A stretch of DNA of 64,000 nt from Octopus sinensis (lineage: Eukaryota): contig NC_043003.1 in NCBI RefSeq assembly GCF_006345805.1, positions 55,366,001 through 55,430,000 of the forward strand, given 5' to 3'. Below, piece by piece: positions 36,137 to 61,978 of this stretch (its first letter is position 1; each line of letters begins with the position of its first letter). A model generated the notes under the pieces. It was not told the DNA's origin and did no database searches. It saw nothing but the letters and a program-made list of their open reading frames with translations. A program made the position numbers and the translations under genes.

Positions 36137-38340
36137 TCATAGGATCATGCTCAAGGTGGCTTCGTCATTCATACGTGCCATTCTTGCTACATTCACCCAT
36201 CTTTTTTTAAAACATTCGCTAGACAAAACTTGCCTCTCTACTCTCACTTTCCTTTTCAAGTGGTACTTGAAGAAGTTGATGAGAGATTGACCAGAGAGGA
36301 AAGTGTTTGTCTCCAATCCTTTCAGACGCGTCCACCAGATACATTCTTTCGCCATAGCCACAAGGATGATGAAAATAGCTCTTCCTTCCCGTTTGAAGGA
36401 GGGAGGCGTGACAATATTGACGATAGACTCAGCTGATAAACCGACTCGTCCCACACGTGACAGCAGTTGTTCGACATAAGCCCACAGGTCGGAAATTGTT
36501 GGACACTGCACGAGTGCGTGCAGAACGGTTTCGTCGCTCTGACCGCATCTCGGGCAGGTCGGCCCCGTTTTTCTCGAGCCGTGTCTGTAGAGCTTATCCC
36601 GAACGGGTAGCGCTTTTCGGTAGCACTGCCAGGCCAGGGATCTCTGGAAGTTGTCTATGGGCCCTGGCCCGAAATTCGTCCTGAACAGGCGGGTCAGGTA
36701 CTCCTCGTCGAGGTCCAGGTTCGCCCCGAGCTCGTCGTTGTACCTCCCCTCCACTAAACCCCAATAGAATGCTTTGGTTGTGTTGAAGTCACTCAAGGTC
36801 GACCCAGGACGGCAGAGTTGCTTGAGAGCAACGCGACACTCGCGGTGCCATTCGCCCTTCTTCGGCCTCTTTTTGATCCACGACTGCAGTTCGGTCATGG
36901 AGACGAGCTGCGGGAAAGCGTGCATCACAAACGGCGACCACACCTGTTCACCGTCGTCTACATAGAGCCAGAGATGTCGCAGTCTCAGCGCGTGTCTGCG
37001 TATCATCAACCACGGCATGCCCAGCCCTCCTTTTAACGGGTGTTGACAGCAAATGGATCGCCTGACCATCGGGACGCATCCTTTCCACAAGAAGCGAAAG
37101 AGAATGCGTTGTAGTTTGGTGATGGTAGGGTCGGGACAAGGTACGACGGTCAGGCGGTAGTAGATGACGGACGCGATGTACGTGTTCGCCACCTCCACCC
37201 GACCTTTTAGGGACAGTTTCCTCTCGGCCCATTGCCGGGCGAGAGTGACCACCCTACTCGTTATCTCATTCCAGTTCTTCTCCACTTGGAGGTCTGGACC
37301 AAACCAGACCCCGAGCAACTCAACCGGGCCGTCGGTCCAGCGTCCCACGACGGAGGCGCTGGTGGACGGCATGGGCTTGCTTCTCCAGGTGCCTAGTCGC
37401 AAGCCCACTGACTTTTCCCGGTTGATTTTCGCTCCTGTCACCGCTTCGTAGTTTTTCAGTGTCTCGCCGACCTGCTCGATATGCTCGTGGCTAGACACTA
37501 TGACGGTGACGTCGTCCGCGTATGCAGACACGCTCGTCCCGCATCCCAGTTCTCGCGGGATGCCTCTCAAGGTTGCCAGCTTCCGCAATAATGGCTCGAG
37601 AGCCAATACGTATAGAAGCGACGAGAGGGGGAATCCCTGACGGACCGAACGTGCGATGTCGAAGGGTCTCGATAGATGTCCATTGACGCGAATTACCGAA
37701 CGGATGCCTCTGTACAAAGCGGCTATCCAGCCGCGGAAGACGGGTCCGAAGCCAGCCGCTCCGAGGACCGCCTCCAAGTATCGATGGTCCACCCTATCGA
37801 AAGCTTTCGATTGATCCAAATTGATCAGCGCCCCACCCATGCCAGGTTCGTTAACTACCCTGTCTATGATGTAGCGCATCAGGTGGAGGTTGTCATGGAT
37901 GGTCCGGCCTGGCACGGCGCATGTTTGCGCCCTGTCGACCAGTTTCTCGATGACAAGCGCCAACCTCTTGGCTAGCACCTTGGCCAAAATTTTCAAGTCT
38001 GCATTAAGCAGAGTGATGGGCCTAAAGTTAGCTATTACATTTCCCTTGTTTAGATCTTTCTTCAGCAGTGTTACGGCTCCTCGGCTCACAAAACCAGGAA
38101 TGCTCCCGTTTTGCTGCCTGTTGCAGTACACCGCCGCCAAGAGATCTCCAAACAAGTCTGGCATACAATTGTAAAGCTCGTAGGGTAGACCATCCAAACC
38201 CGGTGATTTGTCCCTCGAGCATTCTGCCATCGCTTCCTGCACTTCCGCCGCCGTGATGGCACCTTCGCAGCACCCTGCCTTTCTTGTCGAGAGTCGTGGT
38301 AGTCTATGTAGGTAGGCACTGAAGTCTACCCTACGTTCTT
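36137..38340 (-). CDS. LINE ORF2 C-terminal part: reverse transcriptase and zinc-binding domain
   Basis: Motifs KSPGLDGLP, FRPITLLNAD.K, DQSKAFDRV, VRQG.PLS, YADD, GGLG.P and CPRC...ETVLHALVQC. The frame is open upstream of 38242 to about 38340 and is separated from the endonuclease part by a frameshift. Confidence 0.95.
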
Positions 38341-39540
38341 GCCCTGAAAGGCCTCACACATTTTACTTGGCTCGAGCAATTCGCGCCCCTGTTCATCTAC
38401 CAGGGACCGAATGGTGGCTTTGTTGCCCTGTTGCGCCTCTGCCACCCGGGCCTCTCTCGCGGCTCCAACACCTTCGTTCCTTAGAGCACGCATCCTAGCT
38501 CTGACAGCACATCCTTCGTGTTTGGCGTTGAAGTGTTGGTCGAGGGCCAACCTCGCCGCCAAAACGTCGGATGCGATGCCGCTTCTAATTGCCTCTTCTA
38601 GCTTCTTAACTAGCTCACCCTCTACTCTATTTCTATCTATGGCTAGTGCTTTGCTGTACCTAATCGCTTCTGCTTTTACTGCTCTCTTGAGGGCAAACCA
38701 CCATTTGTTATTGATGATGGCTCCCGTCAAAGCCTTCTTTACTAGTGTGCTAATCCGGTCTCTGAAAACCTGTCTTGATGGGAAAGACGCGTTTAGTTTC
38801 CAGTATCCGGGACCCTGCCTAAGTGTCTTACCTAAGTCTAGCGTACATGTCACAAGTTTGTGATCCGTGTAGCTGACTATGTGGAATTGTGGACATCCTA
38901 TGCTATCTCTGTCTACTGTCCTACACAGTATCCTATCTAGATACGATCTCGACGACCCGATGCGGTTGCTCCATGTCCACGTTGGCGCATTCGGGTGGTC
39001 TAGTCGGAACCTGTCAGACAGTTGAAAGCGTCTGAGCAGGTCTCTGAGGCATTTGCATCCCCGTCTATTCCTATCTCTACCCACGTAGTCTACATGCGTG
39101 TCCAAGGTAGCATTCCAATCCCCCACTAAGAGTAAAGGACGAGACGTTCCCAAGAATACTTCTAGACGTTGAATGAAATCCGCCCGACCTGTTAAGGGCG
39201 GTGCGTAGACTGATACGAGTCGAAAAGCGCACCCATTGCTGCCGTCGACATCCAGGACGACCAGTCTACCCTCCGGGTCTACGAATATTGTCCTTACTTT
39301 GAGATCCAGACTCTTGTGAAAAAGTACCGCGGTGCCACTACCGCCCATTCTCGGCAGACAGGGGGAAAAATAAATGTTAAACTGTCCGCCAAACATGGTC
39401 TCTAGGGCCCGCGGATTGTGGAGTCTGGTCTCACTTATGGCTATGATTTCTAACTTATGTGACTTTATGTCATTTAAGAGGTACCCTTGTTTCCAAGGGG
39501 ACCCCAAGCCACGCGCATTTACACAACCAATCTTGATCAT
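38326..39540 (-). CDS. LINE ORF2 N-terminal part: APE-type endonuclease and linker
   Basis: Motifs NARGL, SET, VYAP, GDWN, SYLDRI, TDHK and GPGYWKLN are typical of L1/Tx1 endonucleases. Confidence 0.93.
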   Translation of the reverse strand: MIKIGCVNARGLGSPWKQGYLLNDIKSHKLEIIAISETRLHNPRALETMFGGQFNIYFSPCLPRMGGSGTAVLFHKSLDLKVRTIFVDPEGRLVVLDVDGSNGCAFRLVSVYAPPLTGRADFIQRLEVFLGTSRPLLLVGDWNATLDTHVDYVGRDRNRRGCKCLRDLLRRFQLSDRFRLDHPNAPTWTWSNRIGSSRSYLDRILCRTVDRDSIGCPQFHIVSYTDHKLVTCTLDLGKTLRQGPGYWKLNASFPSRQVFRDRISTLVKKALTGAIINNKWWFALKRAVKAEAIRYSKALAIDRNRVEGELVKKLEEAIRSGIASDVLAARLALDQHFNAKHEGCAVRARMRALRNEGVGAAREARVAEAQQGNKATIRSLVDEQGRELLEPSKMCEAFQGKNVG

Positions 39541-39584
39541 AGTCCTAATGAATTAGAATGCAAGTGAAAGGAACAGAGGGTTAC

Positions 39585-41539
39585 TTACTGCTCGAAAGTT
39601 TTTGCTTTCTCCTCCTTTGGTTTGTCCTCGAGGAGATCCCAGTACACTTTCTTTGTGAGATATTTTTGGCATTTACCAACCGCGCTGGGGAAAATGCCTT
39701 TGAGTGTGTGGTGCAGACTTTTGGAGATGTGTAATATTTTGATGTGGTCTGGTGGTGTTGTGTACGGGTGATTGTTTGTTTTTATGTCATCTTCTGTTAT
39801 GTTTGTTTTTGATTGGATGTATTCCACCAAATTTGTGTTTTTGGTGTCTATAGCTGTGAGCATGTTTGCTGTATATATTTTTGTGGTGTTGGTGTGGCTG
39901 TTGTTTGCGTTGGGTTTTGAAATGTCTTCGTGAGATGTATTTCCCCCTGCTTTGTTCGTGTTTGCATTTGGTTTGGTTGTGTTTCTGCTCTTTATTTTCC
40001 TTCTTTTTGTAGCTATTTGCCATTCCTCACTGGTTTCGTCTTCCGACGAAATTTCTGAGGAATCAGTAGGGGGTAGGGGTATGTTGTGGGCTTCTATGTA
40101 TGTCTGTGTAAGTGGTTGTGTTGTTGTTTTCGTTGTTGTTGGTTGTTGAGTGTTTGTGTGTGTTTTCTTTGTTTTTCTGTTCCTTTGGGTTTTGCTGTTG
40201 TTGGTAGTGTTGGTATTTTTTCAGGTGTTGAGTGGTTTTTGGTTGATGACGGATTAGCTTGGTGTGCTTCTCTTGTCGTCTTCTGTGTTGATGGTGGTGT
40301 GGGTAGTAGAGTTTTTGTTTCCGGAGTGCTTTGGTTGTGGTAGTGGTTGTTGTTGTTGCTCTTGGTGTGCAGTGGTTGGGCACGTCTTTTTCAAGTGTGT
40401 TTCGCTTCCACACAAATAGCAGCGTGGTCGCCTGCCCTCTACCACTATAGAGTTTGTAGCCTCCTGGCAGTTCTAAGCGGTGGGTATCTTCTCTCTTGCT
40501 GCTTCATCCAATTGAAGCAGGAATTCGATTGATTTGCCCACATAGTCTTTCTCTCTTAGAACCGCGATTTCAAGGATGTTTGTCTGTGACATTGTCTCTG
40601 TCATTTCAAAGCAGATGGCAGAGACCAACCATTGTGTTTCGACTTCAAGTGGTATGTTTTTTATTTGGACTTTCGTGACCCTTTTGTTTAAATAGACTGG
40701 TATTATTACCAAGTCGTCCGAATGCAGCTCCAATGTGGAAAAACGTTTTGCTAAACTTTCGTTGAGGAAACGTACTTGGACTGTACCAATTTGTTTCCCC
40801 AACTGATATATTCCTTGGAGTCCCATGCAGGACGAAGGCATTTTTCGATTTTTTCCTGCGGGCATTTTTTCTTCTTCTTTTTCTTGTTTATTACTTTATA
40901 AATTATTGTTTTTTTTTTTTGTGTGTTTTCCACGATGTGTTGTGGAATGTGAAGGTGCAATTTGTCTCCTTCTTTGGAGAAGAGTGCCTTTGTGCGGTTT
41001 ATCTCTTGTGTGGTGAATGTTACAATTGTTCTTTTTTGTTTTGTTACGTCCGCAAAATTCGTTTTGAATTTGGCAGTAGAAGTGTTAATTGTGGCAGGTG
41101 AAGTCATGGTAGTGGTGTTGGTGTTGGCGGTATTAGCAGCAGAAGGCTTAGGTGTAGCATTTGACGTCGTAGTAGTGGTGTTGGTGTTGGCGGTGTTGTC
41201 TTTGGTAGGCGGCTTTGTGCCAATTTCGTTGTTGTTGTTGTTGGTGGTGATGGTGGTGGTGCTGGCATTCATGTTTTCGTTTGTATTCATTTTTGAAATC
41301 CCTTTCTCCGTTCCTTTATCATCAACAAGTGGTGTGAGGAGTGAGGGGAAATCTAAGTTAATGTCTTTGGTCGCGGCGATAGTGAATGCGACGTTAGTTT
41401 TGTTGTTGTTGGTGGTGGTGGTGGTGATGGTGGTGACAGCGGTGTTCACGCTGCGATGTTTAGCAGCTAGTAGTAGCAATAGTGTTTTGCTACCGTTCTG
41501 CATGACTGGCGGGCTAGCCACGTTGTTTCTAGTTGCCAT
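39585..41539 (-). pseudogene. LINE ORF1 (nucleic-acid-binding protein), frameshifted
   Basis: Consecutive minus-strand ORF pieces run from MATRNN (ATG at 41539) to a stop at 39585. They include a Thr/Asn-rich N-terminus, an RRM-like segment (GTVQVRF...VQIKNIP) and the knuckle CYLCGSETHLKKTC. At least some breaks are near A-runs and may be sequencing errors. Confidence 0.85.
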
Positions 41540-41760
41540 TTTCAAAATGAAAGATAGGTAAAAAACCCACGAAAGTTTTGAAAGTTTTTTGTAATTTCGC
41601 CCATACAGTGGCGGAATTCTACGTGAATAATTCTCAGGTTTTTTAGTGAATGAACTTGCACAACGATTAAAAGAAAATATTTGACAACAAGGAGTTTTAA
41701 ACATGTAAAAGTGGCCAAATTACGCGGAGCCGATATGACTAGCGTCCGTCCATTGTGAGC

Positions 41761-43726: not shown

Positions 43727-44769
43727 TTAGGTTGGCAAGAAAGTTCTTTAAATTCAGATGTACATATCTTGCCTCAAACAAAACTTTATTAATCGAAATA
43801 AACACCATCAGAATGAACACAGTTTTACCAACGCGAAACAAGTTTACTTATGCCAGTAGATTAAAGATCCTGCGTTCTGGTGGCGATGCAGTCATTGAAG
43901 GGTTGTATGGCATTGTCTTGGTTTTTGAAGCATTTCTCACGCAGGATGTTGTCGAGATGCTTGAAAAAGTGCTAGATGATAGGGGAAAGATCTGGCGAGT
44001 GTGGCGGTTGAGGCAGAGTTTTGAAGCGCAATTCGTTCAACTTCTGCAGGGTCAGTTGTGTGACGTGCAGCCGAGCGTTGCCTTGGAGAAAAATGATCCT
44101 CTTCTATTGACCAGTGCTGACAGTACTTCGCCGCCGTAATGGTTTCGCCCGGATCCAAAAAGCTGTGATGGATGAGACCTGCCGCAGACCACCAAACAGT
44201 CACCATGGCATTCTTTTGCTGCAACTTTGGCGTTGGGAAGTGCCGTGGAGCTTCGTCGACGTCCAACCACTGAGCTGAGTGTCGTTGGTTGTCGTAAAGA
44301 ATCCACTTTTCATAGCAAGTCACAATCGGGTCGAGAAACGGGTCGTTCTTGTTGCATAAAAGAAGGGAGGCGACAATTCAAAAGTGTTTTTTTGATCAAC
44401 ATCCGATGATCGACCACTACGCTTATCATCTTCAAAACACGTCACTGCTACGAAATTGCTTGCACCACCATTGTGGTTCCTGGGCCAAATGCATTGTTGA
44501 TATCACGAGCTGTTTCAGCAGCTTTTCGACATAGCATGAACTGGAATACGAAAATTGTGCGAATTTGCTTTTTGTCCATGCTGTATTCAACGTTTCGGAA
44601 AAAAATGGCCTAATTATTCAAAAAGAAAAGGAGTAACACGATTAGATAGAGCGAAAAACGGGCTTTAAAATGATATATAAAATCAAAGTCATTTAACGAA
44701 AATTAATTTGCAAATACATCATTTAAAACTAAAATTTAAAATTCCACAAGAACTTTCTTGACAACCTAA
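43727..44769 (-). mobile_element. Mariner DNA transposon, internally deleted
   Basis: TIRs ttaggttg(g/t)caagaaagttctt at both ends, with TA on the left. Transposase remnants TCYEKWILYDN, VTVWWSAAG.IH..FL.PGETIT...YC and HPPHSPDLSP. Confidence 0.9.
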
Positions 44770-60960: not shown

Positions 60961-61516
60961 CAAACACGTACATCGTACATTCCTGTGTGTTTAGTCCTGT
61001 ACGTATATGCTATGCATGTACAAATATGTGTTTGTGTGTGTGTTTTTTTGTGTATATGTTTGTGTATGTATGTGTGAATGTGTGTTTCTATGTGTGTATG
61101 CATATGATTCAGGATTTCGCTTAGGCATAGCGATACTAGTAACCTGCTGTTACGACTCAATATACATTTGGTTCAGAAGAAAGCGCTTTAGAAGAGTACC
61201 GTGTGTAATATAAGAAATTTCATGTACATAGACATGCATATTCATTTATACATATACACATATATTTGTACGCATATATATAGGTAGATAGATACATACA
61301 TACTCACATGCATACGTACAGACACACACACATACATATAAATGTATATATATATATATATATATAATTATGTGAAATAGAAAGATGAATAATCTTGTAG
61401 TAGATTAATCAAAAGTTAACCGATACCTTAGTAGCAAAAATCACAGCAGTGAACAGCACGGTTGGAGGTACAACCATCTGGCGTTGCAACCGTGCGTTGG
61501 TGCGGATAATTGAAAT

Positions 61517-61881
61517 TAAAACATTATTGGTGAATTGAAGAAATGGAGCTGAACGCAGATTGAACAGAAATCGTTTTATTTCATTCTACACGTGTTTCGA
61601 AAGGCACAAATTACCAAAATCCGATTGAATAATGGGACCATATTGTGTCTTTCTCTTCAGGAAGAAAAAAGGAAATCCGTTGGAAAAACAAGCCTCTGTT
61701 CTGTTTTTGTTTTTCCAACGCATTTCCTTTTTTCTTCCTGAAGAGAAAGACACAATATGGTCCCATTATTCAATCGGATTTTGGTAATTTGTGCCTTTCG
61801 AAACACGTGTAGAATGAAATAAAACGATTTCTGTTCAATCTGCGTTCAGCTCCATTTCTTCAATTCACCAATAATGTTTTA
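61517..61881. repeat. Near-perfect inverted repeat with 175-bp arms and a 15-nt spacer
   Basis: 61517-61691 is the reverse complement of 61707-61881, with one mismatch found by eye. Confidence 0.95.
61732..61818 (+). ncRNA. Type I hammerhead ribozyme motif (mirror copy on the minus strand at 61580-61666)
   Basis: ttc-CTGAAGA-gaaagacacaa[loop]ttgtgcctttc-GAAA-cacgtg-TA-gaa: canonical core, palindromic stem III, GUA cleavage triplet. Confidence 0.85.
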
Positions 61882-61978
61882 TATATATATATATATATAT
61901 GAACAAAGAAATGGAGTTAACGCAGGTGTAATCAAATATTTTTACTTTCGACACATGTTTCGAAAATTCCACTGATAC

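What the first reader, a model, noticed from the sequence alone, without database searches (positions are those of the whole stretch)
61368..61881. Young palindromic cassette with two intact, divergently oriented hammerhead ribozymes
Seen: 175-bp arms (one mismatch, 15-nt spacer). Each arm holds a canonical core CUGAAGA...GAAA-cacgtg-UA with an 11-bp stem II. A unique ~150-bp extension lies on the left, and the unit sits between (TA)n tracts. Known: PLE pseudo-LTRs carry minimal type I hammerheads with palindromic stem III, which are thought to act as dimers, and PLE insertions often have inverted 5' segments. Inference: this is a recent, non-coding PLE-derived insertion. Transcription from either strand would give both a ribozyme and a 175-bp dsRNA that could sequester it and serve as an ADAR or Dicer substrate.
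Basis: partly seen in the sequence, partly recalled or inferred. Interest (0 to 1): 0.72.

Follow-up and report, generated by a model that had tools for sequence, protein, structure and literature searches.

The report
Head-to-head stump of Hydra-type Penelope element
This 515-base mirror-image sequence is one short, promoter-less insertion of an abundant young Penelope-type jumping gene, likely made when both strands of a cut in a TA repeat copied the same RNA from two fixed start points, and its two ribozyme motifs are predicted to be locked in a hairpin rather than active.

Summary
The palindrome is real: 175-nt arms, one mismatch, and a hammerhead motif in each arm. It is not a special ribozyme cassette. 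It is one 5'-truncated, head-to-head insertion of a young Penelope-like element (PLE) family with about 1,600 insertions in (TA)n. Full-length copies encode RT plus a GIY-YIG-type endonuclease and carry Hydra-clade motifs. The 'unique' 150 nt is the element's tail, and the 'spacer' is element sequence. In 56 of 75 sampled insertions a tailed arm faces a tail-less inverted arm. The arms share variants and often stop at the same point, which fits priming from both target strands on one RNA. Arm 5' ends cluster at a likely transcription start (24 of 129) but not at the ribozyme cut (2 of 129). This copy lacks that start. Any read-through RNA meets the antisense arm first and is predicted to sequester the ribozyme. 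The structure is published (PMC4209133, PMC3846280, PMC8557442), and this scan noted it often on other DNA (490 notes). Two features differ from the published descriptions: a 150-nt tail, and loss of the cysteine linker proposed to aim at (TA)n, although targeting persists.

The parts
61340..61366 (.). Left (TA)n tract, part of the target site
   Evidence: Sequence; 810 + strand tailed ends are followed by TATAT genome-wide
61367..61691 (-). Tailed arm: PLE pLTR from -104 to +221 (positions counted from hammerhead H17), 5'-truncated
   Evidence: blastn against the natural tandem copy L055, 100% identity
61367..61516 (-). 150-nt tail between the two fixed 3' ends (site A about +57 to +70, site B +219 to +221); in full-length copies it runs on into the ORF start
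61456..61495 (-). Hairpin in the tail (+92 to +131); 9 of 129 arm 5' ends in the family stop at +125 to +141, next to its 3' base
   Evidence: fold z = -2.2; end histogram
61579..61667 (-). Type I hammerhead motif of the tailed arm (C3 61660, H17 61587)
   Evidence: mirror of the right arm
61691..61692 (.). Head-to-head junction, no overlap between arms, unique in the genome
61692..61881 (+). Tail-less arm: pLTR from -119 to about +70, including the 15-nt 'spacer' 61692-61706; carries a private G>C at 61721 (1 of 67 arms)
61731..61819 (+). Type I hammerhead motif: weak stem I, CUGAAGA 61738-61744, stem II 61745-61755/61789-61799 with a 33-nt loop, GAAA 61800-61803, palindromic ACGU loop 3, predicted cut after 61811
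61880..61900 (.). Right (TA)n tract, shared with the older remnant
61899..61978 (-). Solo tail-less remnant (3' half of the hammerhead plus its site A) of a sister PLE family, about 95% identical to its members and 75% to the young family
   Evidence: (942 matches, 0 control)

Best explanation
The sequence is a single 5'-truncated, promoter-less insertion of a young, abundant Hydra-type Penelope-like retrotransposon into a TA microsatellite, likely built when the element's enzyme primed reverse transcription from both cut DNA strands on one sense RNA, once at the tail end and once 150 nt upstream, and the two short cDNAs were then joined head to head. Shown: family membership, the coding parent, (TA)n flanks, two fixed 3' ends, one of each per insertion, arms sharing variants, and 5' ends clustering at -167. 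Inferred: -167 is the transcription start (Inr-like and DPE-like motifs, consensus recalled); both arms come from one uncleaved RNA; the second RT displaces or follows the first. The hammerhead is a passenger here. It probably works only as a dimer through the ACGU palindrome in the parent's tandem transcripts, and in this copy it is predicted to be sequestered on either strand. The copy most likely has no function.
For: L062 is pLTR-ORF-pLTR ending in (TA)n; several copies have open frames of 863-923 codons. On the + strand there are 810 tailed ends and 820 tail-less ends next to TA (- strand counts are inflated by overlapping matches), and only 74 places read on into the ORF. Of 75 insertions sampled by their tailed end (74 on C1 plus the window), 56 have an inverted tail-less partner, 17 look single and 2 are complex; 7 of the 17 have a 12-24-nt inverted tail-less stub. 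Arms of one insertion differ at 0.50% of sites and share non-majority letters at 0.88%, against 2.0% and 0.13% between insertions. At family-polymorphic sites, 62 cases have both arms with the minor allele and 6 have one arm only. The 5' ends lie within 15 nt of each other in 16 of 52 simple pairs (3.4 expected by permutation) and in 11 of 47 without start-site pairs (1.7 expected). The tail-less arm is the longer one in 24 pairs and the tailed arm in 12, which a one-way fold-back cannot give. In vitro, the Anolis PLE protein nicks and extends both strands, starts at two internal RNA sites that bound the tail, is predicted to be a dimer and does not need hammerhead cleavage (PMC11167929). Hammerhead stem pairs have probability 0.000 in the whole-cassette fold.
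Against: Gene conversion between arms after insertion could also make them share variants. Equal ends at internal palindromes (for example L181 at -1707) also fit a snap-back. Up to 10 of 75 insertions show no partner, L217 may be tailed+tailed (partner ends at +208), and L018/L019 is tail-less at both ends. The sample comes from the first 101 Mb of one contig and was picked by its tailed end plus TATAT, so it cannot show tail-less pairs. The window's own junction was not among the joints shown from four independent runs; 24 rows were not displayed. No target-site duplication can be read in (TA)n.
Confidence: 0.75

Rival explanations
1. Snap-back: one cDNA (or an antisense template) folds on itself at a short palindrome and copies itself, which gives the inverted arm. 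This is the self-priming model proposed for Adineta PLEs.
For: Proposed in PMC3846280. Arms share variants and often end together, sometimes at internal hairpins (L181, L187, L208).
Against: A fold-back from the tailed cDNA leaves the extra sequence on the tailed arm. The tail-less arm is longer in 24 of 52 pairs, by up to 1.4 kb (L158), and by 15 nt in this window. A fold-back from the tail-less cDNA cannot create the tail. Ends at A-167, in two cases with an extra G before them (L186, L189; read by eye), suggest a capped sense RNA as template.
Confidence: 0.15
2. The cassette is a functional unit: a host or element-derived RNA switch that yields active ribozymes, or a selected ADAR/Dicer substrate.
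For: The motif letters are intact, and a read-through RNA would fold at -334.7 kcal/mol. Any such hairpin in a host transcript would be a plausible editing or dicing substrate (general knowledge).
Against: The junction occurs once in the genome. Insertion sizes run continuously from 86 to 4,968 nt. Near-identity is explained by youth. Neither arm contains the -167 start. Each strand has one sense ribozyme, preceded by its antisense. Minimal PLE hammerheads do not cleave as monomers (PMC4209133).
Confidence: 0.05
3. Assembly or library fold-back artefact.
For: The locus sits between microsatellites, and no displayed short-read contig bridged this junction.
Against: The arms are unequal in a family-typical way, end at the family's two fixed sites and differ by a private base. 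Head-to-head joints of other copies appear in contigs of at least three independent runs (table 5). The flanks are present at single-copy depth in all four runs.
Confidence: 0.03

Closest known systems
Hydra clade of C-terminal EN+ Penelope-like elements, e.g. Hydra-1_Obim (Craig et al. 2021, PMC8557442; section 11 read whole, passages, supplement hits)
   Same: RW-type N-terminal motif (RIRWL), DKT, YRDD RT, C-terminal endonuclease with CxxC before E and CxH after N, hammerhead in the pLTR, (TA)n targets. By eye the RT resembles the Hydra-1_Obim sequence printed in the supplement.
   Different: Unit is 3.6 kb rather than under 3 kb. The CxCX5C linker is missing (0 of 27 readable copies) and Asn/Ser-rich sequence lies there instead. 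The hammerhead differs from that listed for Hydra-1_oBim. The tail is about 150 nt.
EN+ PLE insertions with an inverted 5'-truncated pLTR and a one-sided tail (Adineta Pen2a, PMC3846280, passages; PMC8557442 fig. 2 legend)
   Same: Head-to-head inverted pLTR, with the tail on only one of the two ends.
   Different: Tail of 150 nt against 30-40 nt. Here the whole insertion is two stubs with no ORF. No TSD can be read in (TA)n.
Minimal type I hammerheads of metazoan PLEs (Cervera and de la Pena 2014, PMC4209133; parts 1-2 of 4 read)
   Same: Long helix II, short weak helix I, G10.1-C11.1, small palindromic helix III, and dual motifs 100-700 bp apart on opposite strands.
   Different: No extra nucleotide between A9 and G10.1; 33-nt loop 2; A.C mismatch in helix II.
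PAc/Poseidon of Anolis in vitro (Frangieh et al. 2024, PMC11167929; parts 1-2 of 4 read)
   Same: Two internal RT start sites that bound the tail, AT-rich target, both strands extended, uncleaved RNA as the main template.
   Different: A different clade. The sites there are inside the ORF and bound a short tail. The parts read do not address pairing of one site per strand in single insertions.
Metazoan non-LTR retrozymes (PMC7229834, passages; bioRxiv 10.64898/2026.07.22.740005, part 1 of 5)
   Same: Type I hammerhead in a short non-coding repeat related to PLE pLTRs.
   Different: Retrozymes are direct tandem repeats of a fixed monomer. This is an inverted, one-off truncation of a coding element.

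Membership tests
EN+ Penelope-like element | [quoted passage not shown] | tested here: met
   P0001/P0002 align end to end with 8 homologues. The Atlas gives RVT_1/GIY-YIG clusters at 0.95-0.96. Pfam alone gave no hit.
EN+ Penelope-like element | pLTRs in tandem or partial tandem around the ORF | tested here: met
   L062, L054/L055, L219
EN+ Penelope-like element | Inverted 5'-truncated copy with a tail at one end | tested here: met
   56 of 75 insertions; the tail is 150 nt, longer than the published 30-40
Hydra clade | RWK motif and DKT instead of DKG | tested here: met
   RIRWL (K replaced by L) and SDKT in P0002. Among 150 homologues, DK[TS] occurs in 107 and ADKG in 0.
Hydra clade | CxxC and CxH flanking the conserved E and N of the endonuclease | tested here: met
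   CNLCVSE ... MVN ... CPH in P0001
Hydra clade | CxCX5C linker between RT and EN | tested here: not met
   All 27 readable of 30 distinct copies read GCRSRN, none with the motif. 28 of 38 long homologues have CxC-x4-6-C. The family is therefore called Hydra-type, not filed as a typical member.
Hydra clade | Insertion into (TA)n | tested here: met
   55 of 56 tail-less outer flanks, which were not selected for TA, have (TA)5 within 40 nt
Hydra clade | Groups with Hydra in an RT tree | not tested
   Named reference sequences were seen only as supplement text and compared by eye
Type I hammerhead ribozyme | Core CUGANGA / GAAA / UH with three helices | tested here: met
   Helix II forms (p 0.93-0.99). 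Helices I and III are not favoured in a monomer (p up to 0.07). No Rfam hit.
Type I hammerhead ribozyme | Self-cleavage after H17 | not testable with these tools
   Indirect genomic test was negative: patterns for a 5' end at +1, +5 and -1 gave 16, 15 and 23 hits
Non-LTR retrozyme | Direct tandem repeats of a hammerhead-bearing monomer | tested here: not met
   The arms are inverted; no tandem repeat over 61367-61881

The most novel reading that the evidence does not exclude
This family is an autonomous Hydra-type PLE that has lost the cysteine linker proposed to aim PLEs at microsatellites and still inserts almost only into (TA)n. Its roughly 1,600 insertions record an asymmetric two-enzyme reaction in vivo: one RT starts at each of two sites 150 nt apart on a single capped, uncleaved sense RNA, one per target strand. 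The targeting determinant would then lie elsewhere, and the family would be a ready test system for how PLE inverted ends form.
Probability: 0.45. Interest if true: 0.55.

Novelty: new member of a known kind. Interest (0 to 1): 0.3.

Why it matters
The locus itself is an ordinary transposon stump. The family bears on two questions that Craig et al. name as open: how PLE tandem/inverted structures form, and what causes microsatellite bias (PMC8557442). The one-tailed, one-tail-less rule, the shared variants and the run-off at a likely RNA start link the 2024 in vitro result (two start sites, both strands) to genomic products. Loss of the cysteine linker with TA targeting retained argues against the linker being required, unless another family supplies the protein. 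About a third of sampled insertions (25 of 75) carry two whole divergent hammerheads, so such hairpins are common in this genome and could feed dsRNA pathways where they lie in transcripts; that was not tested.

Tried and rejected
Rfam scan: no hammerhead family among 59 matches, only hairpin-like microRNA models below their thresholds. DNA search with the arm scored only 2 candidates, which was misleading; patterns showed thousands of copies. Pfam found nothing in P0001, P0002, P0004 or P0005. In vivo hammerhead cutting: 2 of 129 sampled 5' ends lie at 0/+1. Genome-wide patterns gave 16 hits at +1 (9-10 true junctions by eye), 15 at +5 and 23 at -1 (by eye about half of each control are indel variants, flanks not inspected). 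There is no clear spike, unlike notes e1-8622537 and e1-9820663 on other genomes. ADAR signature in the template: 2 of 30 private variants shared by both arms were A>G, no enrichment. Host gene: of 126 short frames from 43,000-64,000 and the next 10 kb, only mariner transposase pieces passed Pfam cut-offs; short exons would be missed, so an intron is not excluded. Empty-site allele: the laid contigs skip the microsatellites, so presence/absence polymorphism could not be judged. A planned tblastn of sister-family loci failed inside, so their linker was not examined. Print searches; none listed a paper on this family or on pairing of the two start sites, but the library lacks most subscription papers. 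Supplements were read only for PMC8557442; those of PMC11167929, PMC4209133 and PMC13282606 (repeat library) were not opened and may describe this family or such pairing.

Full report
Observation. The arms are at 61517-61691 and 61707-61881, 175 nt each, with one mismatch at 61721/61677. The right arm carries CUGAAGA at 61738, GAAA at 61800 and H17 at 61811. Stem II has 10 of 11 pairs, stem III is two pairs around ACGU, and stem I is weak. Rfam did not report a hammerhead. In an isolated arm only stem II is predicted to form (p 0.93-0.99; stems I and III up to 0.07). Two copies can pair through the palindrome at -12.3 kcal/mol. This is the anatomy of the PLE hammerheads thought to work as dimers (PMC4209133, parts 1-2 of 4).

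It is one of many. The window lies in a 2.72-Gb animal assembly; other notes of this scan call it an octopus, which I did not test. The core pattern has 3,533 matches against 6 for the control, and most of the 100 listed are this family, often as minus-then-plus pairs. The 'unique' extension has 884 candidates, and all 40 scored were 99-100% identical. The window's junction occurs once, so the palindrome does not spread as a unit.

The parent. L062 reads pLTR, ORF, pLTR, (TA)n, and L054/L055 and L219 hold tandem units of about 3.6 kb. The protein has an RT and a C-terminal endonuclease and aligns end to end with homologues. Most assembled copies are broken by small indels, but several have open frames of 863-923 codons. 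RIRWL, DKT, CxxC/CxH, the hammerhead and (TA)n targets match the Hydra clade of Craig et al. (PMC8557442, section 11; Hydra-1_Obim compared by eye). One defining motif fails. The CxCX5C linker is absent in all 27 readable of 30 distinct copies, while 28 of 38 long homologues have it. No tree was built, so I call the family Hydra-type.

How the arms are built. Counting from H17, copies end 3' at two sites: A (+56 to +70 in 54 of 56 partners) and B (+219 to +221). The 150 nt between them is the tail. Ends next to TA number 810 (B) and 820 (A) on the + strand, which implies about 1,600 insertions; 74 places read on into the ORF. I fetched all 74 distinct tailed ends listed (first 101 Mb of C1) and added the window. 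Of these 75, 56 have an inverted tail-less partner, 17 appear single and 2 are complex, one of which (L217) may be tailed at both ends. Seven of the 17 singles have a 12-24-nt inverted tail-less stub. Among 28 pairs picked by their hammerheads (counted by eye; they overlap the first sample), 25 are A+B, 1 is A+A, 1 has a broken flank and 1 is not fully in view (for the exceptions). The window is typical: tailed arm -104 to +221, tail-less arm -119 to +70.

One source, probably one RNA. Arms of an insertion differ at 57 of 11,363 overlapping sites and share 100 non-majority letters; between insertions the rates are 2.0% and 0.13% (pairs with under 30 nt of overlap left out). At 34 polymorphic sites, 62 cases are concordant for the minor allele and 6 discordant. 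In 52 simple pairs the 5' ends are within 15 nt in 16 (3.4 expected), the tail-less arm is longer in 24 and the tailed arm in 12. A one-way fold-back cannot give both directions, so two priming events are the simpler reading. This matches the Anolis PLE in vitro: both strands are nicked and extended, RT starts at two internal sites that bound the tail, and a dimer is predicted (PMC11167929, parts 1-2 of 4). Gene conversion between arms, and snap-back in some equal-ended cases (PMC3846280, passages), are not excluded.

What the 5' ends record. Of 129 ends, 24 lie at -175 to -158. There the element reads ACAGTT with the A at -167, and AGTTC at +28 to +32 from that A. These resemble the Inr and DPE consensus, which I recall from Drosophila and did not test. 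By eye, seven tailed arms begin exactly at A-167 (L146, L178, L180, L186, L189, L190, L195). In L186 and L189 a G that neither arm templates precedes it, as copying a cap would leave (recalled). Nine ends lie at +125 to +141, at the 3' base of a tail hairpin. Only 2 lie at the hammerhead cut, and genome-wide patterns show no clear excess at +1 (16 hits) over +5 (15) or -1 (23). Inserted copies therefore come mostly from uncleaved RNA, as in vitro. Both arms in the window start 48-63 nt downstream of -167 and lack this start.

What this copy can do. On either strand a read-through RNA carries the antisense arm first and one sense hammerhead second. The whole cassette folds as one hairpin (-334.7 kcal/mol; none of 100 shuffles comes close), and the five hammerhead pairs tested have probability 0.000. 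No host gene was identified nearby, and RNA coverage of the locus was not examined. Contigs of four runs show single-copy flanks, very high depth on the element and head-to-head joints of other copies; this junction was not among the rows shown. The most likely state is a neutral stump.

Comparison and novelty. Dual hammerheads 100-700 bp apart on opposite strands were reported in Schistosoma PLEs (PMC4209133). Inverted pLTRs with a one-sided 30-40-bp tail are standard (PMC3846280; PMC8557442). This scan holds 490 notes with these words in at least 45 genomes, several proposing the same two-strand priming, and one on another repeat in this genome (e1-8807173); these are unchecked AI notes and not independent support. 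In searches I found no paper on this family or on pairing of the two start sites; unread supplements and subscription papers may hold it. What differs is the 150-nt tail, the lack of a cut-site signal, and TA targeting (55 of 56 unselected flanks) without the linker that was proposed to cause it. Mobilisation in trans by a finger-bearing relative remains possible. Verdict: new member of a known kind, interest 0.3.

Noticed in passing
G000, genome-wide: A broad hammerhead pattern gives 56,201 matches against 2,986 for the reversed control, in many unrelated families. By eye, 67 of 93 readable listed loop-3 tetramers are perfect palindromes of 10 kinds (1 in 16 expected by chance), which suggests selection for dimer formation. 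For scale, PMC7229834 gives 126,247 motifs in axolotl and PMC6962438 gives 235 Rfam hits in giant squid (passages).
   Followed up: partly
L062:4160-4560 and L246-L275: The RT-EN linker lacks the CxCX5C motif and holds an Asn/Ser-rich low-complexity stretch of about 100 residues, reminiscent of the Asn-rich inserts in Adineta PLEs, yet the family still targets (TA)n.
   Followed up: partly
L062:5520-5560 (element position -167): Likely transcription start with Inr-like ACAGTT and DPE-like AGTTC at +28 to +32; two junctions show an extra G before it.
   Followed up: partly
window 61899-61978 (-): Solo remnant of a sister hammerhead-bearing PLE family (942 pattern matches). The young insertion sits in the TA tract next to it. 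The sister's stem I has different letters but still pairs (read by eye).
   Followed up: yes
window 36137-41719 (-): LINE with an AP-type endonuclease frame (38329-39552) and an RT plus zf-RVT frame (36140-38353), with ORF1-like frames upstream.
   Followed up: no
window 43940-44609 (-): Broken mariner/Mos1-type transposase remnant (Transposase_1, HTH_48).
   Followed up: no
window 61088-61220: Short non-microsatellite island left of the cassette with 2-5 times the flank depth in four runs; possibly a low-copy repeat, not identified.
   Followed up: no
L220, L221 (G000 C9658 and C4): Two near full-length copies joined head to head through short pLTR stubs, each arm running into its own ORF.
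   Followed up: no
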